A DNA stretch of 64,000 bases from Candidatus Omnitrophota bacterium (GTDB lineage: Bacteria > Omnitrophota > Gorgyraeia > Gygaellales > Profunditerraquicolaceae): NCBI GenBank assembly GCA_041650835.1, contig JBAZKL010000001.1, positions 701,617 through 765,616 on the forward strand. The letters are read 5' to 3'. Below the pieces are notes generated by a model. The model searched no databases and was not told the DNA's origin. It worked only from the letters and a program-made list of their open reading frames with translations. Below, one piece after another: positions 18,001 through 39,000 of the stretch. Each line of letters starts with the position of its first letter. Position 1 is the first letter of the stretch. The position numbers and the translations under genes were made by a program.

Positions 18001-21000
18001 ATCATCGATCTGAACATCGACTGAAAAACCCTGCTTTTCAAAAGTCCCGTTATGAAAGATGCCCGCTTCCCGTGCGATCAAATAAACCTGTCTTTTTTCC
18101 TTATCGCTCAAGCCTTCTAAATGATTATTAATACGCGCGGTGACCTCATTAACATAATGCTCAGAGAATATGTCTTTTACTCTTTCCCGGACTACTTGGG
18201 TTATTGTAAAATCATGTATGGTTTCAACTCGTTTCAACAACCAGTTAATCGCTCCGTGGCCTGTGAGTTTTCCTCCGCTGACAGCGTCAATAGAGCTACT
18301 AGACGTTTCTCTCTGGCGTAACGCCGCAGGAGTAAGATTAAAACCGCGTAAATTCCCGATACCAGTGACCATTGATAAGCGGATCACTGATAAATCAGCC
18401 AGAGCAGAGGAACACGGGGACGGTTGCTCAAGATGCAGATCCACTAATTCACCGCTTTTATAATTTTCCCGGAAAAATCTCTCTCCGAATTCCCCGAACT
18501 CCACCTGATGCGGGCCCCGCTGGGCGGAGAGCCCGGCACGGGAGGGAATAATTATGGATATCGCCCGTTTAAACGGTTCAACAACACCGCACTTCTTCCC
18601 TGCCTGATCATCACTTGAGCTATCCGGTAAAACATTCGTTGCCGTGGGGAAATAAGTATTATACTTTCCGGCTGAAGGCGCCAAGTAATAAATAACCGTT
18701 ACATTAATATTATTTTCTCGAGACAGCCTGACCCATACCCGCTCTAAGAGACGGGAGAATATTCGATGAGTTTCATTATCATCCCTGGGATGAGGGATGA
18801 ACAGAACTACCGCGGGATTCCCCCTTGCCGATATACTTTTATTAATAAATCCCTTTTCGAGGGAATAGAGATGTTCTTCTACCCCTTCGGGATCGCGGGA
18901 GCAGGCCAAGTCATAATCCAAGTGAATGTTCTTTATCCGGCCGGCAGATAAAATACCCGCGGCATTACTCAATTCCTGCCTGCGGATATCCGCCCCTGTT
19001 AAACCTTTTTCCTGCTGCGCTTGAGTCAAAACCACGCCGCGCGCACCGCTGCTATAAACCACATTCGTAATATCAATACCTTTTTGAGCCAACCGCACGC
19101 CTAATCCACCCGCCGCAATTTCGATATCATCGGGATGCGGGGAATAAAATCTGAAACAAACATTCCTGTTTATTCTGACAGGAACAAACCCTGCGGGCGT
19201 TCGTTCTTTCTCAAACGCCAACACATACCTCTTTGAAAGCTCTACCGGTAAAATCTCCCCCCTTTTTATACGCGTCACCGTAAAGGCGTGAGCGTACGCA
19301 TTTTTATCGTGCGTGAAACCATAGTAACCGGCTAAAGCGCCCGCATAGCGCATGGCATGCCGGGTAAAACTTTTGTAATCACGGCGCTCCTGCTGTGACT
19401 TATGCGCACCGACAGCTTCTATTACTTTTCCCGCGGTTTCTTCACCAAAAGAAAAAACGAGATTAAACTCAGGAGGCAATTCCAGGGAAGCATAATAAAA
19501 CGCAAGCAACTCACGCTGCCTCAGCGATGAATACAGGAGTATCAAATCTTTGGCATGCGGGCAATACGGGGCCAGGATAATTTCAGGGTCATAATCCCCT
19601 AATACCCGCTCTAAAGGAAGATCCTTCCAGGTAAATACCTTGACCTCATTTTCCTCCCGAAGGGCGTTGACAAGATTTCCCGCGAAAGCTAAATGATCGC
19701 CTTCTGTTATCTCAAAAACAGCGATCTTTTTTCCGTAAGGCACAGGATAATTCTTCATGCTGTCCGTGATTTGAGCCTTAGTAAGAAGGATATTCCCTTC
19801 TAAAGGATAAGCCGCATTGTTAACAAGCCGCTTCTTATGTTCATCATAGGTTACCGGGATGATCCTTAAGAAATCGTCAAAAAGACCTTCGAGAACTTCA
19901 CCAAAGGGATCGCCGGACTCATGCAATGCGCCGCGAGCAGGAAGCCCCGGGTATCTCTTGAGGTATTTACCCGGATACCCCACCAGCAAACCAAGCAGCT
20001 CGATCAGGCAATTAAAATTATACATATATTGCTGCCGCAATACTTCCGGGATATTTTTAATCGCTTCTGAATCCGCATTTTGTTCCAAATATACCCTTAC
20101 AATACCCGCTACAGTAATATGGATCCTATTACTATGCCCGGGAGGGACGGAAAATAGCGGGGTAAAGTGTTCCACAAATCTCCAATGCAGGCCGTTCTCC
20201 ATAGTTACCGGAAAGGTTCCTGAAAGCGGGAAATTCTGACTCAATAGATCCTGAAAAACCTCTCCATTAACCCTGACCTGCAATTCCCGGTATTTTGGAA
20301 AGAATTTAACTGCCAGAGACGGTTCATCCCTATGCTGATAACGCTGCTGGCGTTCCTGCCTATCTCTTTCCCAGAAAAATAACGGGATTTGAGGGCCGTA
20401 TAAGATCAAAGTCTCTTTTTTGGCTTTATCGATCAGTAACGTAAAACGCAATGTCAAAGGATCCTCGAAAAGCTTAAGCACAAACAATTGTTCCGTAGCG
20501 TAAATAGAGATACATCCTGCGTCCCAATAATACTGCCCTATTCTGTCTTTGCCCCATTCAAAAGTCAAATTTTCGTTATTCGTTTCCCCAAGCGCGCTTG
20601 AACTGGATTTTTTCTTAGGATCTGCCTGCTTTTGTCTTTTTTTTCGGCCCTTTGTCGCTGCTCCTTTTTTCTCCTGAGGAGCGTTGCCTTTCTTTTCTTT
20701 GCGCGCCTGTTTTTCCTCCCCGCGTAAAAAGGCCTCTCTGACAGCGAGGCGGGGGAATAAAACCAGGCTCCCCAGCAGCATCGCGATAGTAGCATAAAAA
20801 GGCATTTGGCCGATAAACCCGAACAAAACAGCCGCTTCGGTAATTATATTACTGACGGCATGGAGCATAATAATGGCCCATAACGAACTTGTCCTGGCAT
20901 ACACTGACGCGTAGACTACCCCGGACAGGAATTGCTTGATAGGTATGAACTTGATGCCGGCAAAAAACGGCAGGATCAAATGATAGGCGGCGAAAAGAGC

Positions 21001-24000
21001 CGCGCTTATAAAAATGCTTTTGCCGGTGCCTACCTTATAACGCTCGACCAATAAACCTTTAAATATGACCCTCCTGAATAAGATCTCCTCAGCGACAGGA
21101 GCCATAATGATATTAGATGCCAGCGATACCATATAAACAGTAAAGCCGCTTGCGAAGAAAGCGGCAACTACTATTGCAGCGGCATTAACCGCAGTAAGCA
21201 GGACAGCGGCAATAAACAGCGTGGATGTTTTCAGAGAAGCTATTTCTTGTTTAAGCGCGGATGAGGCGCGCGGATGAGGCGATTTTGAAGAAACGATAAC
21301 GCGTGTTCTTACCCGGTGCAGGGTGAGCGCCAAGCCTCCGCGCTTTGCCAGGGCAATAAATTCCCCTTTTTGTTCAGGCATAAGCTGCGCGGCTTTAAAC
21401 CAATCTAAGAGCGCACAAGAAAAACCAATTTCCAAAACATGCTCCAATTCAATCCTTCTATTCTTAAGATACCCTTGAACCAAGGGTATTATCGCCTCGA
21501 TTTTTTCCGCTTGGATACCCTGCGCAAGCAACGCCTTTCTGATCAGCGCCAAGCGGCCATTTTCACAAAGATAATCATTTACCTTACCCAAAGCCTGCTC
21601 GACCGGTGAAAAGTTTATCCTCACCCCCTGGCCGCGCTCAAGAAAAACGCCCATCGCCCGGTATTCTTCATAACTCCTTTGCGGAGCTTCCGCGGCGCAT
21701 AAAGAAAGAGGCAAAGCGAGAAACAGCACTTTTGCTATCGCAGCCCTGATAAAAAAGAGCGCTTCGGTTAAATCAACTGACTCATATCCGTCTTCTATCA
21801 AGATCCTGTTTAAATGCCTGCTTCGTTCACCTAAAGGTGAGATCCCATCGTTTAAAGTAAAATACCATTGCGTCAACTCCTTGCCCTGCTTCTTGATCTT
21901 TTGGGATTGCTGCTGCTTCGGCTTGATAAAAGGCGGGCGGGCTAAATTGATGAAAATATTTGTTTGTTTGAGGTGACTTTTTACCTGTTGAGACATCTCT
22001 TTGGCAGTAGCGGCCTGGATAAGCCGGACACCTTCGGGAGGCCGCGCGTGGGTCGGGCCGCTTATAAGGATAACGCGAGCCCCGCTTAAGTGAGCTATTG
22101 CCGCGATCGCGTAAGGCAACTCCGGGCTTACCTGGCGGCTAATGATCCTGACCCCATCAATGGATTCTTCGCTTGAGCCGGATGAGATCAAGATTGTCTT
22201 TCCCGCGACGCCCGCGAACGGCGGATACCGTTGCGCCTGCTCCAACCGCGCTGTTTCACCTTGTTCCCGAAGCTTTCCTTCCAGCTTCACAGACCGGTAA
22301 ACCGGCCTGAGCGAACGCTTACCGCGGACATCTAAAACTATATCCAGGATCTTATCGGCAACAACTGATTTAGATGCTTCCAAGCAAAGATCATCGTCTT
22401 TATTTTCCCTGATGATCACTACTTTATTGTTTTCACCGCGGAAGCCGCTTCCTTCCTGCCCTACCCTATTGGCGCAAATAAAATCCATATTCTTAGCGAT
22501 GAATTTCCTGCGCGCTTCTTCCACCATCGCTCCCGGCTCAACAGTCTCCGCGGCGAAACCAACGACCACTAAGGATGAAAATTCGAGTTTTTCTTTCTTA
22601 AGGCTGCCGACCCATTTTAAAATATCGGGATTATTATGGAGCGTCACGACAAAATCGCGGCGGCCTTCTCTCTCGATCTTTACCGGACGGTAATCAGCTA
22701 CTGCCGCCGCTGAAATATAGACATCGGCAAAGCGCAAATTCTTAGCCACCGCTGCTTTCATTTCCAGGGCAGTGGACACATCGACCCTCATCACGTTATC
22801 AGGAGTTTCTAAAGATGCGGGCCCGGCGACAAGGATAACGCGCGCTCCCCTCTTTTGTGCCGCGGCGGCGATGGCAAACCCCTGCTTTCCTGACGAGAAA
22901 TTCGTGATATATTCAGGCCTGCCCGGGATAGGTTCCCGGTTCGGCCCTGCGGTAACCAGTATAGTCAGGCCTTTAAGATCATCCGCCAAAGAAGAAGAAC
23001 TTTTTATATATTCGCTGTAAACTTTCGACTCGGGGCTCATTTTCTGGGCCACGTGTTCACCAAAGGGATCATCCGTTAAACGATACAGGCTGACCTCGAT
23101 CTCAGGTGCAACGCGCGACGGTGAATATCGGGTAACACAAAACCCTCCCGGGGCAAGCATCTTCCTTAAAATATCCTGCTCCAGCGCCAAATGGGCTTCA
23201 TACGAAAAACTATCGATCATTTTATTGACCAGAATAAAATCAAAAGCTCCCAACTGCGTGCGGATTTGCGCTTCCAAGAAGTTTGCCGAAAGGAAACCGA
23301 CCATTGTTCTTAATCGGGCGTTCACTAAATACGCTCCTGTTTCATCGTCGAAGGTAAAATATTTATTTACTGTTTCCCCGGAAAGGCTGTCAATACTGCT
23401 TTTCCTAAAACGCCCCGTTCGCGCGGCTTCAAGGGCAAAGCGGTTAATTCCAACCTCAGCGATCTCAACAGGACGCGCTTTTGTATCCCAACCGCTTTCT
23501 AATAATTCAACAGCCAGCATGTACGCGTCAGCGCCTTCTCCGTAGCCCAAACAGAGTATGCGTAACGGTTCACCCTGCGGGCGCAAACGCTCCAGTTCGG
23601 GAAGAATGACCCGGCACATGAATTGATGCACCGGGCTGATCTCAAAAGAAGCCCCCCCGGTGATCATCACCGCGTTCAGATAAACCTGCGCGCAATCGCT
23701 TTTGTCCCACATATCTCTTGCTAACCGCTCAAAATCAGCGGTACTTTTGAGTTTAAATAACGCCGCCAGAGATTCATCATATAAAACAAAACAACTGCCG
23801 TAGATGGGAAAATGTATTTTGAATATATTCTCAATGAGTTTTGTATAATATCTCATTTGCGCCTGTTCGCTTAAATTACTATTCACGAAGGCGTATTTTA
23901 TCAGCTCCGATGGATACAAGCCAAACCGCTGCGCGATATCCAAAAGATGGCCGGGGAAACACCACGACCCTTTACCTTGCTCGATCAACCTCTCCATATC

Positions 24001-27000
24001 TTCCCGAACGTACCTGATATAATCATCTTTCCCGACGCCCAATTCCAAAGGCGCAAGCCCCGGTAAAAGAGGATATACGCTTTGAATTGCCTCTCTCAAG
24101 AGCAGGGATTCTTCCTCCGTAACATCCCAGGTAACCCGGCTTTGCCGGAGCGCGATCTTGACATGAGCATCTTTATCAAGCTGTCCATAAAGCCTTCCCC
24201 GGTGATCCTTGACCAAAACAACTCTCTCTTGCCCATGAATGATTTCGTTTACCTCGACTGCTTCATGAGTTTTAAACGCGAAGTAGTAAAACAGCTTATC
24301 CTGCAGCAAGAAAACAGCTTTGCCTTGCTCCTGAAGGCTGTATAACGCGATCATGTCATCCGTATCCCGGATATGCTCATCAACGCGGGACGTAATAAAA
24401 GTGGCTTGCGCGTAAGTGAGCTTACCCATAAATGTATAGAGCAGAAAATAATATTCGAGGTTTGTGCGCGTAAAGATCCGGTCCTTAATTACATATTCCC
24501 ACTCAATACGGTCTAAAACATAATCGATGGTGCAGGAGCTCAAATAAAGACGGATCATGGTCTGCGGATCAGTTAAGCAGAATTTCACCAGTTCATCCGA
24601 ACCGTCTTTATGGACCTGCTCTATTTTCCAGGGGGCCAAGCTTCCACGGCAATATTTCTCAAAGAACCATCCCCACCAGTCGATCCGCTGCCTGCCTGCC
24701 AGTCCATCGGGCGTCCGGGCGTCAAACGCGGGGCTCACCAGCAGATATTGCATCAATTTAACCGTCTCTTCACCCGCATCAACGACCCGGTTATTGACAA
24801 CCAACTCCCGGCGCTCTTTACCATTGATCGCCCACACATTTAAACCCCTGGTTTCTTGCCGCGATTCAAACCTGACAGAACGTAATGCCGGGTCTACATG
24901 ATCGTCTTTGCGCATTAATACCGATACCTGCCTGCCGATAGGCTTTTCTCTGCGGCTATCCCTGATAATGGTACAGTAAAAACCAAAGTTATAAAATGAA
25001 AGGATAGAATCGACGAACCTTCCTTGCCCGCTGATCTGCGCGTCCTCTGCCCTGTGTTTAACATAATCGGGAGTTTCCCCTAAGGCCAGGTCAAATACGG
25101 ATAATTCCGGCGCGTTAAGATCGAACAGGAAAAAGACAGGCAGAGAAAGCTCAAAATGGTTACCATGCACCAAGGCATTATGTAAAAGGTCCCGCAAAGC
25201 GAAATGTATTTCCCCGTAGTTAAACCCATCTCCGCAGCAGGACATATTCCTGGACCGGCCGGTAGGCGTAAAATTCAATTGCCGCGCGAACTCCGCGTCG
25301 ATCAATTGAGCGAATGTATCAAATTCACTCGCCCTGTTGCAGATAAGCTCAAGAGCATGCCCCTGCTTTATGGCGGGAATGACTTTATTGACCGCCTCCA
25401 GGGCATCGCAAAAGGAATCCGGTGAGCCGGTAAGATCTAATTTGATTATTTCTTTGCCTGTTTTATTTCTGATGCGGTCACGAAGAAAGCCTATCTTATC
25501 AGTATCGAACAGCGGAGAAGGTATTTCTTGCCGCTTACAAACAGGCGGCAGCTCTTTCTCTCCCCAATCATCCAGGTCAGGCGGGTCGCGGACCTCATCC
25601 CAACGCGCGTAAAGCTCCTCAAGAGAGATGCCCACATCCGCTGTCGCGGCTAAACCTTCACCGATGATCTTGTCCGCGTCAAAGTCCTCATCATCAACGC
25701 ATCCGGCATAATAATCGTCTAACTCCGCCTGGGTAAGGAGATTTGAATATCTGCGCTGCTTTCTGGCGACCTGGTCTTTAGTAAGCACGCAGAGGCCATT
25801 GCCGCTTGGAGCGCCTAATGCTCTGGTATAGCTGAGCTTTGCTTCATTTGATTCACGACGGGATCTAAGGGGCGAAGAGCCCTCCTGCGAATGCCTTCCT
25901 TGAACCGGAGAACCGGATGACGGCTTAATATTCAACAGGCTTGCGATCTGCGAGCGGATATTATCAACCAGCAACTTAATGCTTCCGGCATCCTGCCGTA
26001 ACCGCGCAATAACAGGCAGCGCGTAATCTCCCGCTAAAACCATAATACGCTTTTGATTCTCCTCTTGTTCCAAACAAAAATACGCCGCATGGGCCTGATA
26101 AGCATCTCCAAGCCCCTGAAGATAGCATTCATAATGCTTACGGAAAACCTGCGGCGCCGGATGAGCAAGCGCGGAATAAACATGCGCGGCTTCATAATGG
26201 TCCTCGGAAGGCTCCCTCTTAAGATACCCGGGATGGAGCATGCTTTCCCTGTCGATATTGATCACCGGCCTTTTTTCGAGAATGATCAGTTCTTCTATCG
26301 GGTATTTACGCAATTTCTCCACATTTATCACTAAATTGTGCCGGCGGTCATTCATGCCTAAAATATGGGCCTCTGCCATAGCCATGCCCAGGCCATAAAA
26401 GAACCGCCGCTGTATTTCTTCACCCAGACGCGACAGGTCCCAGATAAATTCCAGGATATCGATCCCGACGATCTCGCGGATATAGACATATTCCGGGCCT
26501 TCCTTCATCCAGACACTGGGAGCTTGAATTGCCTCAAGCAGCAAATTCCCGACAATACCCGGGATAGTATGTTCTTCGATACTGTTCAAACGCGATTTTA
26601 TCACCACGCGGGAAATTAACCCGTTCGGCTTGATTATCACCGCGAAATACGGCTGTGTGCGCGCTTCAGTGATCTCCCAGATAAGCGGACGGTCTTCGAC
26701 CCTCAAGATGCGGGCGCCGCCCAGGTCAGCCCGGAGAGATTTCTCTATCAAGAACACCTTTTGGCTTCCCGGATGAATAAAACGCATACAATCGGTATGA
26801 CGGGGCAAGCGGATAAACTCATCATCGATAAGAATCCGCCGCTGCAAACGCCCAAAGATCACGTTGACAACCTCATAATCGCGTATATTGCTTAATTGCC
26901 AACGCTCCTCCCGCGTTAACACGCCTCCTTCTATAAGACGGTCCATCGTTAAGATGAACTGAATATCGCACGGGCCGGCTCCCGCGCCATTCTTTAACCG

Positions 27001-30000
27001 CAGCAGCAATGCTCTGACCAGATGAACAACAGCCGCGACTTCGCGCATGGCGCAATCGGCAAACGTCTCATTAAAAAGATTTTCAATATCCTCCCGCTTA
27101 TAAAACTCGCGCTCCATGATCAAGCGCAGACTTTCACTGAATCGGCGGACCATATGATAAAACACAGATACCGGATGCCCGGCAGGAACAGGAGAGCTTG
27201 CCGGCAGGCTCTCGCCCGGCAAAGAGGCTTTCCGGATATTTTCTAAACAGGTAACAACCTTTTGGGCGATATCCAACGTTGTTTCTCCGCGGATCATGAC
27301 TACAGCATTCCTGCGTGAAGGCGCTGCCTGTTCAACAAGCTCAACATCAACGGCTTCCTGCCGCTGCCCGGGCCGCATGCTGATTATTAACGCCGCGTTA
27401 TAGCCGTCTTCCTCAGGGCTTATTTTACCGGCTTCTTCCCAAACAGCGTCGCGCACGGCTTTTTTAACCGAAGCAAAATCAGCGATCAGGCAAAAAACAT
27501 CCCTTGATTGAGCTATCCTGTTCTTTATAATACTGATTAACGGGACCTCCTGGCCTATCTTCTCATCGATACGCTTGCCCTGTATATATATATGCCCTCT
27601 CTTCTGGGAGACGGCCTGCGTGATAATAGCCATACGGATGAAATCTCCGACGCTTGCTTCATCGAAGAATTCCCCTTTAAATTCAGCGCTTTCCTTTGCC
27701 AGGAACAGGTAATAAACCAACGCTTGAATGAACATCACCTCATCGATACAGCGTAACCCTTCATGCCCTGAAACAACTCCGGCGACCGCGCGTAATCTTG
27801 CCACCTGCCGCGCCTGCTTTGTATGTAATACTACCGGGGGTAACGCTTGCTCGCGGATCCCTAATAACCGGGGATGCGCTATTAAGGGAAGGTTTACCGT
27901 GATCGTAGTCCCCTCGCCGGGGATTGAAACCACGCTGATACTTCCTCCGGCTTCACGGATCAGCTCGCGCAGCGTATAAAGGCCATGGCCGGCCCCTAAC
28001 CTGCCTTCATCCACCGCGTCGAATTTCGGCACAAAGATACGCATCACTTCTTCCTCGGGGATATGCATACCGTCGTTATTAAATTCAATGCTCAAGAAAT
28101 TCTTATTTAGATACGCATTGATCGTGATCGTTAATGCTTCATGCGGCAGGCGCGCGTGCTTGTCCGCGTTAGTCACGAACTCAACCAGGATCATACGCAG
28201 TAAACTCACATGAAAGCCGACATCCTTAAGTTCGCGCACCCCCGCCCCCGGATTAAAAGTTATTTTCGTAGCGGGCGCTTTATATTTCACCCCTATTTGA
28301 GCGAGGGTCTGATCAATTTGTTCAACAATATTGCATTGCGTCATCGCCATACCCGACCACCAGAAAATATCATTACAGTATTCCAATACCGTTTTAATAT
28401 ATTCCAGGATAGTGTCGATATAAAGCTCATGGCCGAGTAATAATCCGGTACCCCGCGCTTTTCTGATGCGCTCCTGCCTATCCTTAAGGATGATCGCCGC
28501 AGACTCAATATACGAGAGAAGCTTACCCACCGGCACCTCTCTTTTGACGCATTGAATAAACATTTTAGGGATCGTATCCAGGATCTCCCTGCACGCTTCC
28601 AAAGAGCAAAACACGCACAGGTCATCTTTATCGGATACCTGCGCGGTCATGTTCTTAAACAGCCGGACAATAATACCCGGTATCATCACGCAGGTATTCT
28701 TAAGATCATGGACCAACCCCAATAAATGCACGTTTTCCGGGACAGTCGGCAATTCTATAGTGAACTCCAAACCTCTCCTGATATCTTTATATCCGCCCCA
28801 GCCGTTTTTAAGGCTCGCGTACACGTGATGCATAAAATGATTACTTAAGCTGATCTGTCCCCTTATCAAGCCGAGCATTTTGGCGATACGATAGAGATTA
28901 AGGGAGCCTTCGGGGACCCTCCTGCGGTAGAACGGCTCAAACATGAACGCCAGATCTTCAAGCGGAGATCCCTCTCCGTTATCGCACACATGAAGGAACA
29001 GCCTCCTGTTCCTCTGTTCAAAAGTAATATGTATGGAGCGCGCTTTCGCGTAACAGGCGTTCTTGAAAAGATGCGCCAGGATATCAAACAATTCCTTACT
29101 TACGATAACATTCGCCGGCTCATCCAAATAACTAAAGCTGAACCGGGGAGCGGACGCCCCCAGTACCGATTTCAGGTCCTCGATAGCCGCTTTAATTTCT
29201 TGAGCGAGATCCTGGGCAGTCATGGTCAACGGCTCAATGACGCCCACCCCTGAAAGGGCTTCAGTGACCTGCGTGGTAAGCGAAGCTATATTCTCTATTT
29301 GCACCTGGACGCCGGTTAAACAGTTCTTGCATGATTGCGTTTTGCCCGCGTCAAAACCGGCGCAACCGCCGCATTGCATGGGCCGGCTTAATATCTCGAC
29401 ATGGCCCCTGACCGCTTTTACCGCGACGCCGACTTCAGAAAACACCTCCTGTAGTATTTTCTCGACATCCGCGTCCTTATTAGCCACTTTATTCTCCGCT
29501 TTCTTGATAACGCTATCCATGCGCGCCTCAAGTGCGGTGATCTCATCCGCGATACCGATGAATTCTTCACTGCGTTCCCACGCGGGATGGCATTGTTGGC
29601 GCATATACTCTAAAGAATCTCCCAATGAACCGACATAGCCGGACAGCGCTCGAGTAAAATAAATCGCGTTATATTCATTCTTTAATATTGAAAGGGTTTC
29701 CCGGGCTTTTGCCTGCACAACCGGATCATTATCTAAAAGCATCCCCTGCATAAGCACAGGCGCGATAGTCTGGGAGCCGGCTTCCCGCATATCTTGCGCG
29801 AGCTGGACCTTTTGCGCGCTGGAACCTTCGCGGGATATCCTGATAAACCAATCCCTGATGCATCCGGTTTGTTCAAAGCTGGCATACCACCAGAGTAACA
29901 CAAAACTTTTTTCTCTCTCTTGAGCCGAAGCTTCCGGGGAAAGATACACATCCATAGCCTCCTTAAGCTGCCCCTTAAACCCGTCCCGCAAGGGAAGGTG

Positions 30001-33000
30001 AACGGTCATTTTCCCGTTCTGCTTATAGACCGTAGCGTATTTAAGGCTTTCATCGTCAGCGGGAGTAGCGGTGAAATACAATGAGAACTCGAATTCTCCG
30101 GGGACTACGGGGCGCACCGGGACGCGCACTCTAAAAATATTATGCGCTTTTTCATCACGGCCGGGATCTCCAAAATGCCAAAGCTTATTATCCTCCTCGA
30201 GTGAGCTTGCCTTATAGTTATCACGTATAATATCCGAGACTTCCACTTCATCCAAGCTTACCTTCATTGAGCCTCGCGGCCAGAAGCCCAGGGAGATCTT
30301 CCCGGATTTCAGGTAATCGATTAATTCTCCCGCCGTGACCTTCTCATTAAGCTCAACGCTCGCGTAAGCCCAAAATCTTTCTCCGAAGACTATGGAATCC
30401 TGGATATTTCTTTCCTCTGTACGCTGGTCGATATGCCAGGCATCCAGGACTTTCAACGCGAGAGGTATCCCCGGCAGAGTGATTGCGGCATCCCGCTCTC
30501 CCGATAACGGTGATCCGCTCTGCCAAGCTATCCCCTGGTCATTGAATTCCCTTAATACTTTTTTTACCTGTTTGGCAAAGAAAGACATTTGGTATTCATG
30601 GACGAAATAAGCATATTCCCTGGCATCGCGGGAGATTTCAGGAAAGATCTTCTTAACTATTTCAGTACTGTAGCCCGCGGAAGACTCCATAACGCCTAAA
30701 GCATTGATGCCGAGCTGATAGAGATTCTCCGCGACATGCAGATACGAACGTTGTAATGAACGCTTGAGCGGCTGGTGAAAACCATTAACTTCCACGAAAT
30801 CGACCGTAAGGTATCCCCGCTGTTCACTGCCCAGGCGGGAGCGCTGCATAAAATTAACAAACCCGGGAGCGTCATAAACTAAACTTTTGAAATCACCGTT
30901 TTTTCCGATAACTAACGTCACATCAGAACCTTCACGGGCCTCAACAGCTCCGCCGAGTGCCTGCCGCATATAGTGAGCGGCCTTGTAGATCCTCTCCCCG
31001 GATGCCTCGGTCAATATCAAAAGATTAACATCGCTTATCTCTTTACGCGCCAGCCCAAGGTAACCCATGCTTCCCACCATCCAGACTGAAAACGGCTCAA
31101 GAGAAGTAAGCAGTAGTTTTTCCCGTATTATAAATTCCCGCAGCGCGTCCCGGAAAGACTCCTTCTCCTGTTTACTGAACAAAATTTCCAATAATTCATC
31201 GCGCTCCCAGGATTCAGGCACCGGATAATCGCGTTCAAGGACCGCGTCAAGGAATGCTTTCATGCGCGTAAAACGCTCCGCCGGGTCAGGAACGCTGTTT
31301 TCAGAAAGACTGTCTTCCAACTGATTGTAACGCCGCGCGGAGGCGTTCTTGCCGCTCACATCCCCGGTATCGCGCTTATTATTATGAGGAGCGGAAAAAG
31401 AAATAGTCACATGCGTATTCGTTAACGGATGGTTCCTTTCCCTGCGCACGGCGATAAGCATCTCTTGCTCGACATAATCCTCCAAATTAACGCATAGATC
31501 AGGGCTCCACCTCTTGAGCGTTTCCAAGACCGTATTAATCGCCGTCCCCATAAGATCATCGCTGTAAAAAGACCGTTCAGCCGAAACAATCCGGTTCAGC
31601 GGGTCCACGCCGCTAAACTGCTTCATCAATCTGAACGCGGCCGGCAAAAATAACTGAAGAAGTTTTTCCTGGGCCGCTTCATCACCGTCTTCAACCATCA
31701 TATACCAGAGTTCGGACTTACTGACGTCATACGCGTCAATTCCCGGAACAACTTGCTCATTTTCCTGTGAGTAGTCCCACAGCTTAAGCATGAACTTCTG
31801 ATGCCCGGTCAATTCGATCGGCTCTTTCTCCTTACGGGGCTGACTCTCAAGAATTCCGTACCTGCGGGCCGCATCATATAGGCACCAATCTCCTCCCTCA
31901 GCGATCTTACGTTTAAGCGCCTCAGGGGTACGGTCTTCAGGAGCGCGGCTATAATATGCTCTTTGCGTAGATTCTAAATCAGGATATTTACGCCGCTTCC
32001 CCCAAGAATTGATCCGCGCTGCCTGCCTCTGTTGATACAAGGCGACCTCCGGGTAAGTTACTTTATCCATAGTATCTACCATATCCGTAAGCTCTGATAT
32101 ACCGCGCGCCCCGGTGATCCTTACTTTTAATTGCTTCAGATAAAGTTCGCGCTTTTTAGCCGCGATAAGATCGACTATTTTACCTCGCCGCGGCTCTCCT
32201 ATTGAGCCGTCAACGTTGAGCTCTTCCAGCGCGGGAAGCGTATGGGCCCGGCGAAGCTCTTCCCGCAAGTGCCGGACAAGCTGCTGCTCCCGAGCCTGTG
32301 CTAATTTCTTTCGTTTAATATCCTTAACGCGTAATATTCTTGCCGACGTCGGATCATCAAAATCAGTAACCGCGATCTTTTCCAGCTCTTCTAAAGACGC
32401 CGCATGAAGGATCTCCTGGCAAATAACTCTTATTCGATTGCGACGGACTGCCTCTTTCCGGAGCAGATCCCTCTGAATCCGGTACAAATACCGCAAGCAA
32501 TCCCCTGAGGAGGCGCGGCCGCCGTCCAAGAAGAACAACAGTACATTTCTAAAATCTTCTTCGTGTGTTTTTGCTGTTTCCGGGCTCATGCGGCCTATGC
32601 CCTGGCGCAACGAATTAACCTCTACTATCAAGGAACGGATACGATCAGCCCGGCGGGCAACGGTCTTCTCTCCGAAAACACGGATTTTCTCCGTCTCAAG
32701 CCTGCTCTTCAAAGCATGAAGGAAATGAAGCGCGCGGGGATAATCATCCTGTCTTACCAGGGCAACTGCCTGGCGGTACCTGCCGGCTAAACGCCGCATA
32801 TGGAAGGACTGATATATTTGAGATCTTTCCCCAAGCTGCTTTCTGAGACTGCCTCCCTGTAAATCTATCTCTACAAAAGGCCTGCCGTCAGTACCATAAA
32901 CAGGCTCACCGCATTTATCACGCAGGTAACGGATACGCGCTATCCGGTTAGCGCAGGCAAGAATAGCGACTGCTGTTTCGGTAAGATGCTCCGCGGTAAG

Positions 33001-36000
33001 GTCGAAGTCGCGGAACCAAAAACGGCCGTTAACATCTGTTGTAATCCCCTGAACGATAAAATTACCGTTGAGGGCGCCTGCAGCCTGCGCCTCCAGATTT
33101 TCACTCCAGCGTTCAAAAACCTCAACTAATTCTCCCGCCGCGAAATCATCTGGACTAAAGCGATTATCAAGGGCATAAAGTTTATGCAATTTCTTACGCG
33201 CCACTGACCCGTCTTTTTTATTCGCGTAAGCGCTCACCAGGAAAGCTTTCTTATGAGAAGGATTCAGAATGCCATCCACACAGGCGAGTTCATAGCCGCA
33301 CTCGGCGCTAAAATCCATTCTTACCCGGTTAGCGATGATCAAAAGCCCCCGCTTCGTAAGGCGTTTCTGATGGATCTCATGCCAGGGATGTAATCGGTTC
33401 AAATGCTCCTCAAGAAAACGGCCCCAGACGCAGGAAATGAATTTATCCAGGCGCTTATCCTTGATCAAGATAAACGGCTCATCAAGGCGGGATTCCAGCG
33501 AAGAACACCAGGATACCAATCCATCCCTGACCAGAAGCTTCACTTTTTGATAATTGTATTCCTCGCCGAAGGATGCCCAGCTCCAATTCCCCTTTTTACG
33601 GTCGCCCAGGATATTCGGCCGCCTGCCGCCGATACGCAGTTGCCCCTTAAGCCCCAGAAAAGTAAAGGTTGTAATATCGTTGTAACGCATGAATTTATCT
33701 GAAACGATCGTACCCCGGTGTACATCGATCACTTCCCCGGTCTGATTATCTATAATAGGGAAGAATTCAAACCGCGTGTGGTCTTTAAAGAAAAATACCT
33801 GCTTTAAAACGCCTTTATCCACTTCAAGCTCATAGGCGGAATTTTCATATCCCCGGAAACCAAAATTATATTCACCGATACGCAGCTTAAAACTATCTTC
33901 CAAAGCTCCTCGGATCACCACATGCCCGAGCGCACAAAGCATTTTACGGTTAACTGAGCGCGGCAGGTCATGCCGGTCAAGATACCGCACAAGCGCGTCA
34001 TCGCCGAAAGATCGGGACAAAAGCTTTCTCCATATAAAGAAACGCGATTCGCGGTCATCCTGCGGCAAAACAAAATCCTTATGCAGCTCCTCCTCCTTCC
34101 AGAGCATGCGCTGTAAATCGATGATACTTGCGCCGGGAGCGAGCAAAACGGGAGAACTCGAGGCAAGCTTATCCTGCTCCTCTTTAACTTTCAGCACCTG
34201 GCTGATAAAGAACCTGATCAGATATTCATGCATAAAATAAACATAATCCAGGGACGGCTCAGAGGTGACGCCGATAAGTTTATCGGCCATGTGCCTGCTT
34301 ACCCCCGGCGTTGACTCCATCACCAGGATGCCGTTTGAACCTAACTGATATACGTTCTCCAGGATCTGGACGCGCGCCCGGTACATGCCGCGCATCTTCA
34401 ATTGCGCGCAATCACTGACGCTGAACAGCTCCAGCGATAAATACCCTTTCTCCCGGTTGCCCACATTATGGCGGGCGAGAAGCTCGGCGAAATCAGGAGA
34501 GTAGCTCTGCGTGTCCTTAAGATCATCAGCCTTGCCGACGGTCAGGGAAATCCCGTTCCCGCTATTTTCAGAAACATATCCGGTGAGTTTTTCGCGCATG
34601 TAATGCGCCGCCTCCACCAGCTTTTCTCTTTCCGTTTCCGCCAAAAGCATAAGATTAAGGTCGCTTACCCCTTTTCTGGCTAAACCGATATTGCCTAAGC
34701 TTCCCATGATCCAGAGGGCGAACGTATCAAGCCACGGCGGGACCAACTGCCGGCTGACCATAAATCCTTTCAGATCGGCGCAGAGCGCGTTCTTTTCCTC
34801 GCGGCTGAATAAACGCTCTTGCGGCACTTCAAACGCCCCCAACTCCGGCAGACAAGGGTATGCCCCGGAGTTTAAAGCGCGCAAAGATTCCTGCATCCTT
34901 ATCAAACGTTCGGGAATGCCCGTAGCGTGGGGATCGGACAAGGAATCATTAACTAAAAATCTTTTGTCTCCCCAGTCGGATGTGCGCGCGACACTCTGGC
35001 CGCGTCCCCGCGAATCATCGGTGGAAACGAGCATGAACTTACGATCGAGAAGATCAGCGCTTCCTTTCTCTTTACATATAGCCGCAAGGATCCTTTCCCA
35101 AACGAATTCCTCTAAATCGCTTTCTTCCTGAAGGCTCCAGGCATCTATTGCTTCAATGAGCGCTAAAATAGCTTCCCCGCTTTTATCGTCTTTAAAATAA
35201 TCCGCGGACGCTTCTTTTCTTCTCAGGAACATGGAAAAATCATGCTTTCCGTCTATTTCGCGGTATATCCGGGGAAGAAAATACCCGACGATCGTATCCC
35301 TGGCGGACTGATCGCCGCTTTCTTTCATCAAGTTCCAGAGCTGCCTTAAATCGGCAGCGCTCACCTCATGCTCAGAGGCATTCCCGTTCCCCTTATTGAA
35401 TTCAAGCATTTTTCCCTTAAAGCTCTGATAACCGCTTACCGCCGGCTCTCCTGCCGACGGAGATAATTGCTTCTTCGCCGACTTATAGAGACTGTTTAAC
35501 CTGCGGCGCGATAATTCTTCCAGCTTCTCAATGTATTCAATTGATAATTCGGGTATCGCGATATTTTCAAGTTCCTGATTACTCTCGGCAAGCCTGATCT
35601 GTTTCTTTATTTCTTTAAATAACTCCCTCTCGAAAATATTTCTTAAATACGAGGTCCTCTTGCCTAAGAGGATCTTCATTTCTTCTTGAACCCCCGGAAG
35701 CAGGCCATCGAAAGTGACCGTTTCCAGCAGAGCAACATCCTTTATGGAACGGATCATTTTCCTGATCCGGCATTGGGCCTCCCGCGAAATGCGTTGGATT
35801 ATTTCTTTACGCTTTGCCTTGCGTAATAATTCGATTTCTTCCCGGTCAGCGCTTTTTAGATTATCCCAGGACAAAGCGTGCAGCGCTTCAACGGTAACTG
35901 CCTGACGGATAAGATTCTTTGCCTGACGATAACAGAAATCAGCCATCTCCATATCATTCCACATATCCATGACCACGCGCTCGATTTCGCGCAAACGGCC

Positions 36001-39000
36001 CTCGGCTGCCGGATCAAAATAATGAAATTCAAGAACATCCAATGATCCCATCAAAGCAGGGACACCAGCTCCTTCAAAAGAAGAAAGTTTCCGGCGCAAA
36101 CTCCCGATAGTGCGCAACCAACGCAATATTGCTTTTGCCTGATGAGCAAGCTCACCTTCCCCGTTTATCGCGATCCTTCGCTGCCTGAAGAACTTCCCTA
36201 TCTTAACGAAAGCCTCCCTTGCATTTTTTATATCAGCATTTTCATAATAAGCTAAAGCTTGAACGAAACACGAACGCACTAAAGACAGCCTTTTAACCTG
36301 ATAAGCACGGGCTTTTTCAAAACACTGGGCCTTAATGCCTAAAGAAAGGTCTATCACAAGCGGTAAGTCATCATTATCAAATACCGGCAGGCCGCGATTA
36401 TCGCTTATGAACCTTACCAGTTTCTTTTCCCCTGCGATCACCAGCACCTCAACCTCGGCTGAAGCGAAGAAATCATCTGAAAAAGAGGCAAGAAAACCCT
36501 GTAATTCCAGGACTCCGTCGGCGGTTAACGTCCTGGGGGAAATAATGTAATCTTGCGCGGTCAGCTTAGACATCTTTTTGTCGCTCCATTTCTCAAAGAC
36601 AGCCAATAATTCCCCCTTTACGAAATCCTGCGGACGGCTTCCCGCCTTAATCGCGTAAACACCAGAGAGTATTTTCTGGGCCTTAATGCCGTTATCCCAG
36701 ACCCTGGCGCCGCAGATAAAGGCTTTTTTACCGCTGGGATTACGGATATCAAAGATATCTGCCTGACGATAAGAATAATCCGCTCCGAAATTCATCCATT
36801 CTTCACCTCCTAAAGCCAAAGAACCGTCCTTGCTTAAACGCAACGCGTGGATCTGATGGTAACCGGCCAAAGCGTTCAACTTTTGACGGGTTATGGTAGA
36901 CCAAAAACAATCAATATACGTATCATTACGCGCGTCCCAAATGAGGGAAAATGTTTCATTCAGCCCTGATTCCCATGAACAGCAGCGCCTCACCAATCCG
37001 GCCTTAACATAAACATTTACTTTTTCATAGGCAAACCTGCCGCCGAACTTTGCCCAGCGCCTGCCCGCCAGATCCAATATTCCATCCATGCCCAAATATG
37101 CCTCGATCACCGCATCTTGATATCCGGTGAAACGCTCTTGAGGGATCTTTCCGCAATGCAGATCAATGACTTCGCCTGTATACTTATCAGTTACCTGAAG
37201 AAATTCTTCCAGGCAATGGTCCTTAAAAAAGAATACGCGCTTAAGGATGCCGCCTTCTATTTCCAACTCATAAGCTGACCCGCCATACTTCGTGAACTTA
37301 AAGACATACCCGCCCATAGAAAGAGAGCCGCCCTGAGGCATTGTTCCGGATATCACCGCATGCCCCAGCTCTCGCAGCAGCTGCCGGGTTATGGTAAAAG
37401 GCAGAGAACCCCGTTCATGCCTCTTAATAAATCCTTCATTCCTGAAAGATATTTGGAGAAGTTTATCCCAGATCAATTGACGAAGCATCGGATCAGGTTC
37501 TTCAAAGCCGCGCCCCTTCTGCCGCCACAGCTTCTTCTGCAATAGATACACACCTTCTTCCCTCAATCCGGGCCTTTCCAATAACCGTTGCCCTTCAGGG
37601 GATATCTCCGGCATCTTAAGAAGCTGCTCCCCGGATTGCCCCTGGCGGTAATACGCCGCCGCGTGCGGGACTAAATGGAGCGCGTCATCCGCGTACATCT
37701 TAGCATCACACCTTACCGCCGATGAAGACCGGGAAGCTGCCCTCGGTTTCTCAAAAACCCTTAAATGCCCGTCAAGCAGTTGTTTGAAACCAGCGCTTAA
37801 AACTAATGATGAGCCCTGACGGACCTGCCAATAAATACTTTCATCAGCGCCATAAATTATCAGCTTACTTCCCGGCCCTAATTCTCTCTGCGCCTTGGCG
37901 ATCACCGCGGTATTTGTCGAACCTGCCCAGAAATAATACACAAAGTCAAAACCGCTCAACTGGCTTTTTAAGAAATCTCCCCTGACAAAATAAACCTTGC
38001 CTAAATCAAGGATCTCGCCTAATTGAGCGCTCACCCGCGGATGGACACTTATGTTATACAAACCAAAATCATACTCTATTCCTTTTGCCTGCGCGCCTAA
38101 AAGCGCGGATAGATATACAACCCTGCCGTCTCCACTTCCTAAATCAAGCAGGCTTTTTCCCGGTCCGACCCCAACCGACCTTAAAGCACCCGCCAAATCA
38201 TCCAGCCCATGCAAAGACGGTAAAAACGCGCCCCGGCCCCCCGCCACATGGCCTTTTGATAAAGGATCTAATGTCCCCTGAAGGACCATCTCGAATTTCT
38301 TCAAAGTCTCCTGCGTAACATTACAGGAAGATGAAGAACCCAAAAGTTCAAGACAGGCGCGCGTATGAAAATAACGCACTTTTTCTTTTAATGAATGCCT
38401 CCCGTCATCCTCACCGGAAAAGCCGGCCCTTAAAGCTATCGCGGAAGCGCTGGGGCCGGGAATGATCTTCTTATACCATGCCTGGAGCAAGACGGCCGTT
38501 TCTATAATGCTCTGGGGATACAACGAAACAGGGACGTATCCCAGATTACGCGCGGCTTCATCATAAATTATCCGGGCTGCGTGTTCAGGGATATTGGGCC
38601 ATTTATCTTTTTGATGAGCGGCGGGAGTTACAAAAATATCCGGTATCTTATTTTCTAAAGCATAATTCTCTAACATCGCCAGCGCCTGTTCAGGCCATGC
38701 CTTGAAAAGTTTCTTCCAGCTATTCCTTAAGTGTGTTGCCAGGTCACTCTGTATCTCTGTCACTATTAAACTCTCTGCCTGCTTCTGGAATCTCAGATAG
38801 TAAATGGCACGGGGGATATGCTGCCTTAAAGCGCCGGTATTGTTCCATAACGGAGGTTCTTCCTCCGAGAAGAAAGCAAACACCTGACTGCCCTCATCGG
38901 CAAACGGCAAGGCGGGGATCACGACAACTATGCCCGGGACGGGAGCGACAACTGTCTTCATATATTCGGGGTTCAAGAGTGCCTCAGGGAACCGCAAAGC

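What the first reader, a model, noticed from the sequence alone, without database searches (positions are those of the whole stretch)
27800..29410. A complete histidine-kinase transmitter core is buried mid-protein, and a second orphan GHKL ATPase sits at 59.7-60.0 kb
The H-box LGLVHDLKNTCVMI at 28681-28740 is followed about 130 aa later by a canonical HATPase_c. Its motifs are FNNDGMHIP (G1) and GAGHGLYTLRELIREAGGSISVVSIPGEGTTITVNLP (G2).

Upstream are a Cys cluster (CGGCAGFDAGKTQSCKNC, a possible metal or redox sensor) and a degenerate DNGEG...FEPFYRR segment.

An independent GHKL domain lies near the N-terminal end of the window (DNGRGF ... GKGGHAGRGLPL).

I did not recognise a receiver domain, so the phosphoryl acceptor would have to lie outside the window or be non-canonical.

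Together with the CheR-like methyltransferase (23 kb) and the GlnE-type NTases, this gives the protein a strong protein-modification and signalling flavour.
Basis: partly seen in the sequence, partly recalled or inferred. Interest (0 to 1): 0.65.

Follow-up and report, generated by a model that had tools for sequence, protein, structure and literature searches.

The report
Atypical histidine-kinase cassette in giant protein
Inside a single open reading frame of more than 21,000 codons, most likely from an Omnitrophota bacterium, sits a real but unusual histidine-kinase-like signalling unit with no visible receiver partner; kinase-type ATPase domains in such giant proteins were already catalogued, so only the details of this unit are new.

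Summary
The whole window is one stop-free minus-strand ORF of 21,333 codons, open at both ends.

**Confirmed**
- Pfam finds HATPase_c at aa 11,933-12,039 (E 5.9e-28).
- The "degenerate" upstream segment is itself a significant HATPase_c (E 2.4e-9).
- There is no receiver domain anywhere in the window.

**Not confirmed, or qualified**
- No HisKA-type model matches the H-box region. Even so, His11764-Asp11765 is invariant in 10 homologous units and aligns in register with ordinary kinase H-boxes.
- The unit is atypical. Four helices, not two, lie between the His and the ATPase. The consensus G1 Asp column holds Asn. A decayed cytidylate-kinase-like domain follows.
- The 59.7 kb "GHKL" is only suggestive (Pfam E 0.048).

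**Context**
- The unit belongs to a roughly 1,060-aa cassette. Every relative that carries a taxon name is from Omnitrophota.
- No relative has a receiver domain in cis. None is called within 8-10 kb of the four relatives whose loci I examined.

**Verdict**
- It is probably a working autokinase with a partner in trans. This is inferred, not shown.
- HATPase_c is already listed among the commonest domains of Omnitrophota giant proteins.
- I rate it a new variant of a known kind, of moderate interest.

The parts
1..63999 (-). Single uninterrupted ORF of 21,333 codons, open at both ends. This is the giant multi-enzyme protein that carries the cassette.
   Evidence: no stop codon in minus frame 1, against 746-1,667 stops in the other five frames; many unrelated enzyme domains; no tandem repeats.
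27337..30522 (-). Conserved cassette, aa 11,160-12,221. Order: beta-rich domain, HEAT-like repeats, helical linker, GHKL-1, H-box four-helix domain, catalytic ATPase, cytidylate-kinase-like domain.
   Evidence: 49% identity to L001 (Omnitrophota MAG) over aa 11,160-12,119 only. P0015 aligns over aa 11,181-12,122. Family hits.
29950..30522 (-). Beta-rich domain of unknown fold, aa 11,160-11,350. Possible input domain.
   Evidence: Conserved in L001, P0012, P0016, P0015 and P0011. No Pfam match.
29671..29907 (-). HEAT-like repeats, aa 11,365-11,443.
   Evidence: The profile of alignment A4 matches designed HEAT-like alphaRep proteins, E 1.5e-7.
29320..29373 (-). Cys cluster CGGC-x10-CKNC, aa 11,543-11,560, in the helical linker.
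   Evidence: Present. Only 3 of the 4 Cys are kept in L001. The cluster is absent in P0008, P0013 and P0015.
28744..29100 (-). GHKL-1, aa 11,634-11,752. An ATPase-like domain with N-box Asn11647 and a canonical G1 (Asp11673-x-G-x-G), but no glycine-rich G2 lid (GSLNLYR).
   Evidence: Pfam HATPase_c 38 bits, E 2.4e-9. The G2 replacement [GS]S[LF]x[LV][YW]R is seen in all five members that have this domain. Alpha/beta sandwich in the model.
28333..28731 (-). H-box domain, aa 11,757-11,889. Four predicted helices at aa 11,757-84, 11,791-818, 11,824-49 and 11,858-83, ending in the family motif N-[DE]-x-x-x-W-x-G.
   Evidence: Model secondary structure. A leave-out family HMM matches end to end, E 8.4e-6, and nowhere else in the protein. 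hhalign against ordinary pre-ATPase regions puts His on His. No Pfam match.
28708..28710 (-). Codon of His11764, the proposed phospho-acceptor in the motif H-D-L-K-N.
   Evidence: His and Asp are invariant in 10 of 10 units. H+1 acidic and H+4 Asn match the HisKA kinase/phosphatase motif (PMC3510030).
27868..28332 (-). Catalytic ATP-binding domain, aa 11,890-12,044. N-box Asn11944, G1 'N-N-D-G-M-H', F-box, G2 G12002-x-G-x-G-L, G3.
   Evidence: Pfam HATPase_c E 5.9e-28. PDB kinases SrrB and YycG match at E 1e-8. HMM alignment shows the displaced G1 Asp.
27337..27801 (-). Decayed cytidylate-kinase-like domain, aa 12,067-12,221. Walker A and the SG..R nucleotide motif are lost.
   Evidence: The family HMM matches at iE 1e-7. 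The homologous domain in P0009 passes the Pfam Cytidylate_kin cut-off, 28.8 against 26 bits. No Pfam match in the window itself.
59695..59922 (-). Possible second, isolated GHKL-like domain, aa 1,360-1,435. Asn1362, DNGRGF at 1,393, GRGLPL at 1,428.
   Evidence: Sub-threshold only: Pfam E 0.048, PDB PrrB E 0.17, local HMM E 0.13. The motif triple is unique. No homologues found. No nearby H-box domain.

Best explanation
Nt 27,337-30,522 encode one copy of a recurrent signalling cassette of large and giant proteins; every relative that carries a taxon name is from Omnitrophota. Its core is a divergent HisKA-type autokinase.

**Proposed mechanism**
1. The ATP-binding domain (aa 11,890-12,044) phosphorylates His11764.
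2. His11764 sits on the first helix of a four-helix H-box domain.
3. The first two helices correspond to the usual dimerisation and phosphotransfer hairpin.
4. The two extra helices may pack on that hairpin, so the unit could work without pairing two giant polypeptides.
5. The phosphoryl group would then pass to a receiver domain that is not in this window. That receiver would be either elsewhere in the same polypeptide or a separate protein.

**Flanking domains**
- The upstream GHKL-1 keeps its adenine and Mg ligands but lacks the glycine-rich lid.
- The downstream cytidylate-kinase-like domain is decayed in this copy.
- Both are most likely regulatory or docking modules.

**Shown:** domain identities, motif conservation, family distribution, and absence of a receiver in cis.

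**Inferred:** autophosphorylation, the role of the extra helices, and the partner in trans.
For: **The ATP-binding domain is real**
- Pfam HATPase_c gives E 5.9e-28.
- PDB kinase ATPase domains match.
- NCBIfam kinase models match the same stretch.

**The His is conserved and in the right place**
- His11764 and Asp11765 are the only invariant columns across 9-10 units that share 11-43% identity.
- H+4 is Asn in 7 of 10 units.
- H+1 acidic is required for kinase activity and H+4 Thr/Asn for phosphatase activity in HisKA kinases (PMC3510030).
- A profile-profile alignment of the family H-box region to unselected pre-ATPase regions of 25 ordinary kinases puts His on His. The score is 30.1 (P 1e-4), against 5.8-10.7 in 30 column shuffles.
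- In a PDB profile search, the first specific natural hit is a kinase H-box (8u4x, E 0.004). No HPt domain or PDK N-domain appears.

**The other ATPase motifs are kept**
- N-box, G2 and G3 are invariant in the family.
- The window and L001 keep all motifs at 49% identity.

**Structure and precedent**
- Foldseek returns classical kinase DHp+CA structures at E about 1e-8.
- A monomeric, active histidine kinase exists in which another domain covers the dimer face (EL346, PMC10359499).
Against: - No HisKA-type Pfam model matches the window or any relative.
- The consensus G1 Asp column holds Asn in the window and L001. From general knowledge of GHKL ATPases, Asp-to-Asn at that position usually abolishes ATP binding. 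Whether the adjacent Asp11976 substitutes is unknown.
- No receiver domain is in the 21,333 aa or in any module-bearing relative. None is called within 8-10 kb of the four relatives whose loci were fetched.
- The structure model is only moderate: pLDDT 69, pTM 0.38, from an alignment of 6 sequences. I could not inspect the helix packing.
- P0009 and P0010 begin with signal-peptide-like N-termini. That would put ATP-using domains outside the cytoplasm (my reading of the sequence).
Confidence: 0.5

Rival explanations
1. A non-catalytic relic. In this lineage the cassette has lost kinase activity and is kept as a nucleotide-sensing or purely structural and docking module inside the giant scaffold.
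For: - The G1 Asp column is Asn and the second G1 Gly is His or Ile in the window and L001.
- GHKL-1 lacks the G2 lid in all members.
- The cytidylate-kinase-like domain has lost its Walker A and its SG..R motif in the window and L001, while other members keep more of them.
- No receiver was found anywhere.
Against: - His-Asp, N-box, G2 and G3 are all retained at 49% identity between the window and L001, and across the family. That is hard to explain without catalysis or phosphotransfer.
- An Asp sits immediately next to the G1 column in both sequences.
Confidence: 0.2
2. A receiver-independent kinase. One option is a Ser/Thr protein kinase built like the mitochondrial PDK/BCKDK enzymes, with a four-helix bundle followed by a GHKL domain. 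The other is a unit that passes phosphate from His to a non-receiver acceptor, such as the attached cytidylate-kinase-like domain or its ligand.
For: - Foldseek hits to PDK1-4 and BCKDK rank alongside the classical kinases (E about 1e-8) and align more columns, about 320 against about 240.
- Four helices precede the ATPase.
- The cytidylate-kinase-like domain follows the ATPase in eight of the ten H-box/ATPase units compared (not in P0009b; the L001 contig ends first) and in P0012.
- There is no receiver in cis in any relative, and none is called near the four examined loci.
Against: - TM-scores to PDK/BCKDK are low (0.35-0.46) and rmsd is 13-15 A.
- No Pfam PDK/BCKDK N-domain match appears at E <= 5.
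- The H-box aligns in register with HisKA H-boxes and carries the H-[DE]-x-x-[TN] motif tied to receiver dephosphorylation (PMC3510030).
- The nucleotide motifs of the cytidylate-kinase-like domain are lost in this window.
Confidence: 0.15
3. For the 59.7 kb segment only: it is a chance motif combination in a domain of another fold, not a GHKL ATPase.
For: - All sequence tests are below threshold.
- No homologues were found.
- The structure model has pLDDT 37.5.
Against: - HATPase_c is the only Pfam family listed at E <= 1 for this segment.
- The best PDB hit is a kinase ATPase domain with N, G1 and G2 aligned.
- Motif order and spacing (Asn1362, Asp1393, Gly1428) resemble those of the confirmed domain.
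Confidence: 0.5

Closest known systems
HisKA-type sensor histidine kinases (for example EnvZ, HK853, WalK/YycG, SrrB)
   Same: - The ATP-binding domain carries N, F, G2 and G3 boxes.
- The H-box motif H-D-L-K-N sits on a helix and aligns in register.
- A helical hairpin follows the His.
   Different: - No HisKA HMM match.
- Two extra helices and about 60 extra residues lie between the hairpin and the ATPase.
- The G1 Asp is displaced.
- A lid-less GHKL domain lies directly upstream and a cytidylate-kinase-like domain directly downstream.
- No receiver in cis in any relative, and none called near the four examined loci.
- The unit is embedded in a protein of more than 21,000 aa.
HATPase_c domains catalogued in Omnitrophota giant proteins (bioRxiv 10.1101/2023.11.21.568195 and 10.64898/2026.06.07.730766)
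   Same: - Same phylum, judged from the relatives.
- Same kind of multi-enzyme giant ORF.
- HATPase_c is among the top-20 domains in the 2023 study. In the 2026 catalogue it is in 136 of 916 long proteins, grouped with methyltransferase, GNAT and HD domains, as seen here.
   Different: As far as my term searches of the two preprints show, they list Pfam hits only. I found no mention of the H-box domain, the lid-less GHKL, the cytidylate-kinase-like partner or the cassette as a unit. I did not read either paper in full.
EL346, a monomeric HWE/HisKA2 histidine kinase
   Same: It is a precedent for an active kinase in which an intramolecular partner covers the usual dimerisation face (PMC10359499). 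This is the role proposed here for helices 3 and 4.
   Different: - It belongs to a different H-box family.
- The covering element is a LOV sensor domain, not extra helices.
- The role proposed here is not shown.
Mitochondrial PDK/BCKDK protein kinases
   Same: An N-terminal four-helix bundle is followed by a GHKL domain. Foldseek E is about 1e-8 over about 320 columns.
   Different: - They are Ser kinases with no HisKA-like H-box.
- TM-scores are low.
- No sequence-level match to their N-domain.

Membership tests
HisKA-type histidine kinase transmitter (DHp + CA) | HATPase_c catalytic domain above the Pfam cut-off | tested here: met
   98 bits, E 5.9e-28, against a cut-off of 26.4.
HisKA-type histidine kinase transmitter (DHp + CA) | Canonical nucleotide motifs N, G1 (DxGxG), F and G2 | tested here: inconclusive
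   N, F, G2 and G3 are present. The G1 consensus Asp column holds Asn11975, followed by Asp11976, and the second Gly is His.
HisKA-type histidine kinase transmitter (DHp + CA) | Match to a HisKA-family HMM (PF00512 or relatives) | tested here: not met
   No Pfam family at E <= 5 on aa 11,751-11,890. None in five relatives.
HisKA-type histidine kinase transmitter (DHp + CA) | Conserved phospho-acceptor His in an H-[DE]-x-x-[TN] motif on helix 1 | tested here: met
   The motif is HDLKN. His and Asp are invariant in 10 units. hhalign places it in register, P 1e-4, and 0 of 30 shuffles reach that score. Motif roles are from PMC3510030.
HisKA-type histidine kinase transmitter (DHp + CA) | Two-helix hairpin joined directly to the ATPase (His-to-N-box distance about 113-140 aa) | tested here: not met
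   The distance is 180 aa here and 172-190 in the family, against a median of 120 in 75 ordinary kinases. Four helices are predicted.
HisKA-type histidine kinase transmitter (DHp + CA) | Cognate receiver domain in cis or in an adjacent gene | tested here: not met
   None in the 21,333 aa. None in the relatives, and none called within 8-10 kb of the four examined loci. A partner outside the window cannot be excluded.
HisKA-type histidine kinase transmitter (DHp + CA) | ATP-dependent autophosphorylation on His; homodimeric four-helix bundle | not testable with these tools
   This needs biochemistry or a multimer model.
PDK/BCKDK-type GHKL Ser kinases | N-terminal four-helix-bundle domain of that family followed by a GHKL domain | tested here: inconclusive
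   Foldseek E about 1e-8, but TM 0.35-0.46 and rmsd 13-15 A. No Pfam or PDB sequence match to the N-domain.
Omnitrophota giant multi-enzyme proteins | Very long single ORF (10,000 aa or more) tiled with many different enzyme domains, plus membrane segments | tested here: met
   At least 21,333 codons. About 20 distinct Pfam families. No tandem repeats. Two clusters of hydrophobic segments.
Omnitrophota giant multi-enzyme proteins | Encoded in an Omnitrophota genome | tested here: inconclusive
   The source of the window is unknown. The only genome relative is an Omnitrophota MAG, and the named relatives are all Omnitrophota.
GHKL ATPase (for the 59.7 kb segment) | HATPase_c above cut-off, or a Bergerat fold | tested here: inconclusive
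   14.5 bits, below the 26.4 cut-off. The model has pLDDT 37.5. Motif order and spacing fit.
Cytidylate kinase (for aa 12,067-12,221) | Pfam Cytidylate_kin match and an intact Walker A | tested here: not met
   No Pfam match in the window, and Walker A is absent. Homology rests on the family HMM (iE 1e-7) and on P0009 passing the Pfam cut-off.

The most novel reading that the evidence does not exclude
The H-box / ATPase / cytidylate-kinase-like trio is a self-contained phosphotransfer unit that does not use a receiver domain. Two versions are possible:
- His~P is passed to the attached nucleotide-kinase-like domain or its ligand.
- The unit is an exported effector kinase that works in the cytoplasm of a prey or host cell, after delivery of the giant protein.

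Three observations fit this reading:
- The trio recurs in eight of the ten units compared.
- No relative has a receiver in cis, and none is called near the four examined loci.
- The 2-5 kaa orthologues have signal-peptide-like N-termini.
Probability: 0.12. Interest if true: 0.8.

Novelty: new variant of a known kind. Interest (0 to 1): 0.42.

Why it matters
**If the unit is active**
- It would be a histidine kinase that functions as an internal module of a polypeptide of more than 21,000 residues, possibly without dimerisation.
- It would give a concrete, expressible fragment of about 450-600 aa for testing what the signalling domains of Omnitrophota giant proteins do. Current studies list these domains only as Pfam hits.

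**Evolution of giant genes**
- The same unit is the only part shared by genes of 2,041, 4,964 and 6,480 aa that occupy one conserved genomic slot, and by this ORF of more than 21,333 aa.
- That makes it a useful marker for tracing how these giant genes grew.

**If the unit is inactive**
- The finding is a routine domain annotation in an already described class of proteins.

Tried and rejected
- **Closer homologues in the word-indexed protein database.** The cassette query returned only distant ordinary kinases. The 59.7 kb segment returned nothing. The H-box family alignment returned nothing.
- **Metagenome contig scan.** It gave one ordinary HAMP-HisKA kinase, L002, which is not a cassette member.
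- **Single-sequence AlphaFold model of the 59.7 kb segment.** pLDDT was 37.5, so it was not used for fold search.
- **Idea: GHKL-1 is the ATPase of a decayed upstream kinase core (tandem duplication).** hhalign of the region upstream of GHKL-1 against the H-box domain gave probability 0.7%. No conserved His lies upstream. There is no evidence for this idea.
- **Idea: the Cys cluster is a conserved metal or redox sensor.** It is not conserved beyond the window. Only 3 of 4 Cys are kept in L001, and the cluster is absent in the other members.
- **Internal similarity among the three GHKL-like segments.** phmmer found none.
- **Alternative ORFs on either strand under the finding.** Only chance ORFs of 60-138 aa were found.
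Full report
**1. What the window is**

The minus strand, frame 1, is open for all 21,333 codons. The other five frames carry 746-1,667 stops each. The finding therefore lies inside one giant ORF that runs off both ends of the window. GC skew is uniformly negative and there are no tandem repeats.

Pfam scans of the whole translation show a mosaic of unrelated enzyme domains:
- PrmA/MTS-type and other methyltransferases
- a B12-binding-like domain
- ThiG
- CheR (aa 13,460-13,620, E 6.2e-14)
- two DFP stretches
- Rce1-like
- PIG-L
- GT2
- HD
- NAD(P)HX dehydratase
- APH
- a cytidylyltransferase

A hydropathy scan finds hydrophobic clusters only at aa 14,080-14,420 (the Rce1-like region) and aa 19,167-19,492. 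The kinase region therefore lies in a long stretch with no convincing membrane segment.

**2. Checking the observation**

His11764 is encoded at nt 28,708-28,710.

- Pfam finds HATPase_c with E 5.9e-28 in two stretches.
- The downstream stretch (aa 11,933-12,039) is supported by PDB kinases SrrB and YycG at about 1e-8 and by many NCBIfam kinase models.
- The upstream 'degenerate' segment, run alone, is also a significant HATPase_c. It scores 38 bits (E 2.4e-9) and spans nearly the whole profile.
- The H-box region alone matches no Pfam family at E <= 5.
- No Response_reg or Hpt match appears at E <= 0.01 anywhere.
- A local receiver HMM finds nothing in the giant protein. Its seed sequences came from my memory. 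It was validated on five database kinases, including P0002, P0003, P0005 and P0007, whose precomputed Pfam lists include PF00072.

**3. The kinase region belongs to a recurrent cassette**

A scan of one genome per species found a single relative, L001, on a contig of a Candidatus Omnitrophota MAG. L001 is 49% identical to window aa 11,160-12,119, and only there. The 3,000 aa upstream in L001 are unrelated to the window and contain a GH77 domain.

An exhaustive HMMER search of 1.84 billion representatives found further members:

| Protein | Length | Note |
|---|---|---|
| P0008 | 797 aa | partial |
| P0015 | 2,216 aa | complete gene |
| P0009 | 2,041 aa | complete gene, two units |
| P0010 | 4,964 aa | two units |
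| P0056 | 6,480 aa | one unit |
| P0011, P0012, P0013, P0016 | various | partial cassettes |
| P0017 | 77 aa | fragment |

Where a source gives a taxon name, it is Omnitrophota.

The cassette has this order:
1. A beta-rich domain.
2. HEAT-like repeats (alphaRep matches, E 1.5e-7).
3. A helical linker.
4. GHKL-1.
5. The H-box domain.
6. The catalytic ATPase.
7. A cytidylate-kinase-like domain.

The last domain passes the Pfam Cytidylate_kin cut-off in P0009. It follows the ATPase in eight of the ten units compared; P0009b lacks it and the L001 contig ends before it would be complete. In the window it is recognised only by the family HMM (iE 1e-7). It has lost its Walker A and its SG..R motif there.

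**4. Anatomy of the kinase core**

*The His.* Across ten aligned units, His and the following Asp are invariant. The consensus is H-D-L-K-N. In HisKA kinases the acidic residue at H+1 is needed for kinase activity, and the Thr/Asn at H+4 for phosphatase activity on the receiver (PMC3510030).

*Similarity to ordinary H-boxes.*
- A profile-profile comparison of the family H-box region with the unselected pre-ATPase regions of 25 ordinary kinases aligns His on His. The score is 30.1 (P 1e-4). Thirty column-shuffled controls score 5.8-10.7.
- A version using regex-selected H-boxes gave P 8.5e-7, but that comparison is biased by the selection.
- A PDB profile search gives designed coiled coils first, then a kinase H-box (8u4x, E 0.004). 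No HPt domain or PDK N-domain appears.

*Departures from the textbook core.*
- The AlphaFold model (6-sequence alignment, pLDDT 69, pTM 0.38) predicts four helices of about 27 residues between GHKL-1 and the ATPase.
- The His-to-N-box distance is 172-190 aa in the family, against a median of 120 in 75 ordinary kinases.
- A family HMM built without the window and L001 recognises the whole four-helix domain in the window (E 8.4e-6) and nothing else in the protein.
- In the ATPase domain the consensus G1 Asp column holds Asn11975, followed by Asp11976, and the second G1 Gly is His. L001 shows the same pattern. Most other members have DxGxG.
- GHKL-1 has a canonical N-box and G1 but replaces the G2 lid with [GS]S[LF]x[LV][YW]R in every member that has the domain.
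- No conserved His precedes GHKL-1. Its upstream region is not detectably related to the H-box domain.

**5. Fold comparison**

Foldseek against the PDB returns two groups at similar E-values of about 1e-8:
- Classical kinase DHp+CA structures (WalK, HK853, YycG, ZraS), with about 230-250 aligned columns and TM up to 0.56.
- Mitochondrial PDK/BCKDK Ser kinases, with about 320 aligned columns and TM 0.35-0.46.

Rmsd values are 13-17 A in both groups. This does not discriminate between them. The sequence-level H-box evidence favours the histidine-kinase reading.

**6. The partner**

- No relative has a receiver domain.
- P0009 and P0015 are complete genes among housekeeping or glycosyltransferase genes. 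No receiver is called within 10 kb of either.
- The same holds within 8 kb of P0010 and P0056.
- The 2026 catalogue of Omnitrophota long proteins places HATPase_c and Response_reg in different co-occurrence modules. That is consistent with these observations.
- The H+4 Asn argues that a receiver-type partner exists somewhere. Where it lies cannot be determined from this window.

**7. The 59.7 kb segment**

Sequence support is sub-threshold in three tests: Pfam E 0.048, PDB PrrB E 0.17, and local HMM E 0.13.

In its favour:
- HATPase_c is the only Pfam family listed for the segment.
- The three motifs align to N, G1 and G2 of PrrB.
- The ordered motif triple is unique in the protein and absent from 200 shuffles, although the pattern was chosen post hoc.

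Against a firm call:
- There are no homologues.
- There is no usable model.
- There is no H-box domain nearby.

I leave it at roughly even odds.

**8. Comparison with what is known, and novelty**

HATPase_c is among the 20 most frequent domains in Omnitrophota giant proteins (10.1101/2023.11.21.568195). It is present in 136 of 916 long proteins in a 2026 catalogue, grouped with methyltransferase, GNAT, HAD and HD domains (10.64898/2026.06.07.730766). The headline of the finding is therefore already known at catalogue level.

What I did not find described:
- the four-helix H-box domain
- the lid-less upstream GHKL
- the attached cytidylate-kinase-like domain
- the lack of a receiver in cis

A literature search for the kinase / cytidylate-kinase combination returned nothing. 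I rate the finding a new variant of a known kind.

**9. Verdict**

The most likely reading is a working, divergent HisKA-type autokinase embedded in a recurrent cassette of Omnitrophota-type giant proteins, with its receiver elsewhere (confidence 0.5). The main rivals are a non-catalytic relic (0.2) and a receiver-independent kinase (0.15).

Noticed in passing
L003/L004/L005 (P0009), L008 (P0010), L009 (P0056): Genes of 2,041, 4,964 and 6,480 aa occupy the same syntenic slot: pnp, dut, bacA, ftsK, HTH_25, miaB-like, pgsA, pgpA, [gene]; cinA follows in the P0009 and P0010 loci (the P0056 contig ends just after the gene). By blastp, the only part they share with the window's ORF is the H-box / ATPase / cytidylate-kinase-like unit. 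This suggests one gene lineage that grew by domain accretion.
   Followed up: partly
P0009 aa 1-28; P0010 aa 1-35; P0056 aa 1-6: The N-termini look like Sec signal peptides ending (S/A)WA|(Y/H)P. P0009 has no other hydrophobic segment. By simple topology, its ATP-using kinase, cytidylate-kinase-like and nucleotidyltransferase domains would lie outside the cytoplasm. No signal-peptide predictor was available, so this is my reading of the sequence, and it is unexplained.
   Followed up: partly
window 27337-27801 (aa 12,067-12,221): A cytidylate-kinase-like domain follows the kinase ATPase here, in seven other units of the family (not in P0009b; the L001 contig ends before it would be complete) and in P0012. 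Walker A is intact in P0012, carries Lys-to-Arg in most members, and is lost in the window and L001.
   Followed up: yes
window 29671-29907 (aa 11,365-11,443) and 29950-30522 (aa 11,160-11,350): HEAT-like repeats are preceded by a conserved beta-rich domain with no Pfam match. That domain is shared with P0011, P0012, P0015, P0016 and L001 and may be the input domain of the cassette.
   Followed up: partly
L001 6920-8806 (aa 2,307-2,935 of its ORF): In the Omnitrophota MAG contig the cassette directly follows a GH77 4-alpha-glucanotransferase domain (E 1e-86). The 3,000 aa upstream of the cassette are unrelated to the window, so these ORFs are mosaics of shuffled modules.
   Followed up: partly
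window 20740-21760 (aa 14,080-14,420) and 5524-6501 (aa 19,167-19,492): These are the only two clusters of strongly hydrophobic segments in the 21,333 aa. The first coincides with an Rce1-like CAAX-protease domain. More than 14,000 aa N-terminal to it have no convincing membrane segment.
   Followed up: no
window 22411-23622 (aa 13,460-13,863): A CheR-type SAM-binding methyltransferase domain (E 6.2e-14) is followed directly by DFP (CoaB/C-like) domains (E 3.9e-77, two stretches). No chemotaxis partners are in the window.
   Followed up: no
window 28500-28700 (aa 11,770-11,830): Several Cys in the H-box domain are conserved among the window, L001 and the 77-aa fragment P0017, but not in more distant family members: the Cys after HDLKN-x, the Cys of 'EAC/QAC/TCR', and the Cys of 'FIQC/FISC/FAQC'.
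   Followed up: no
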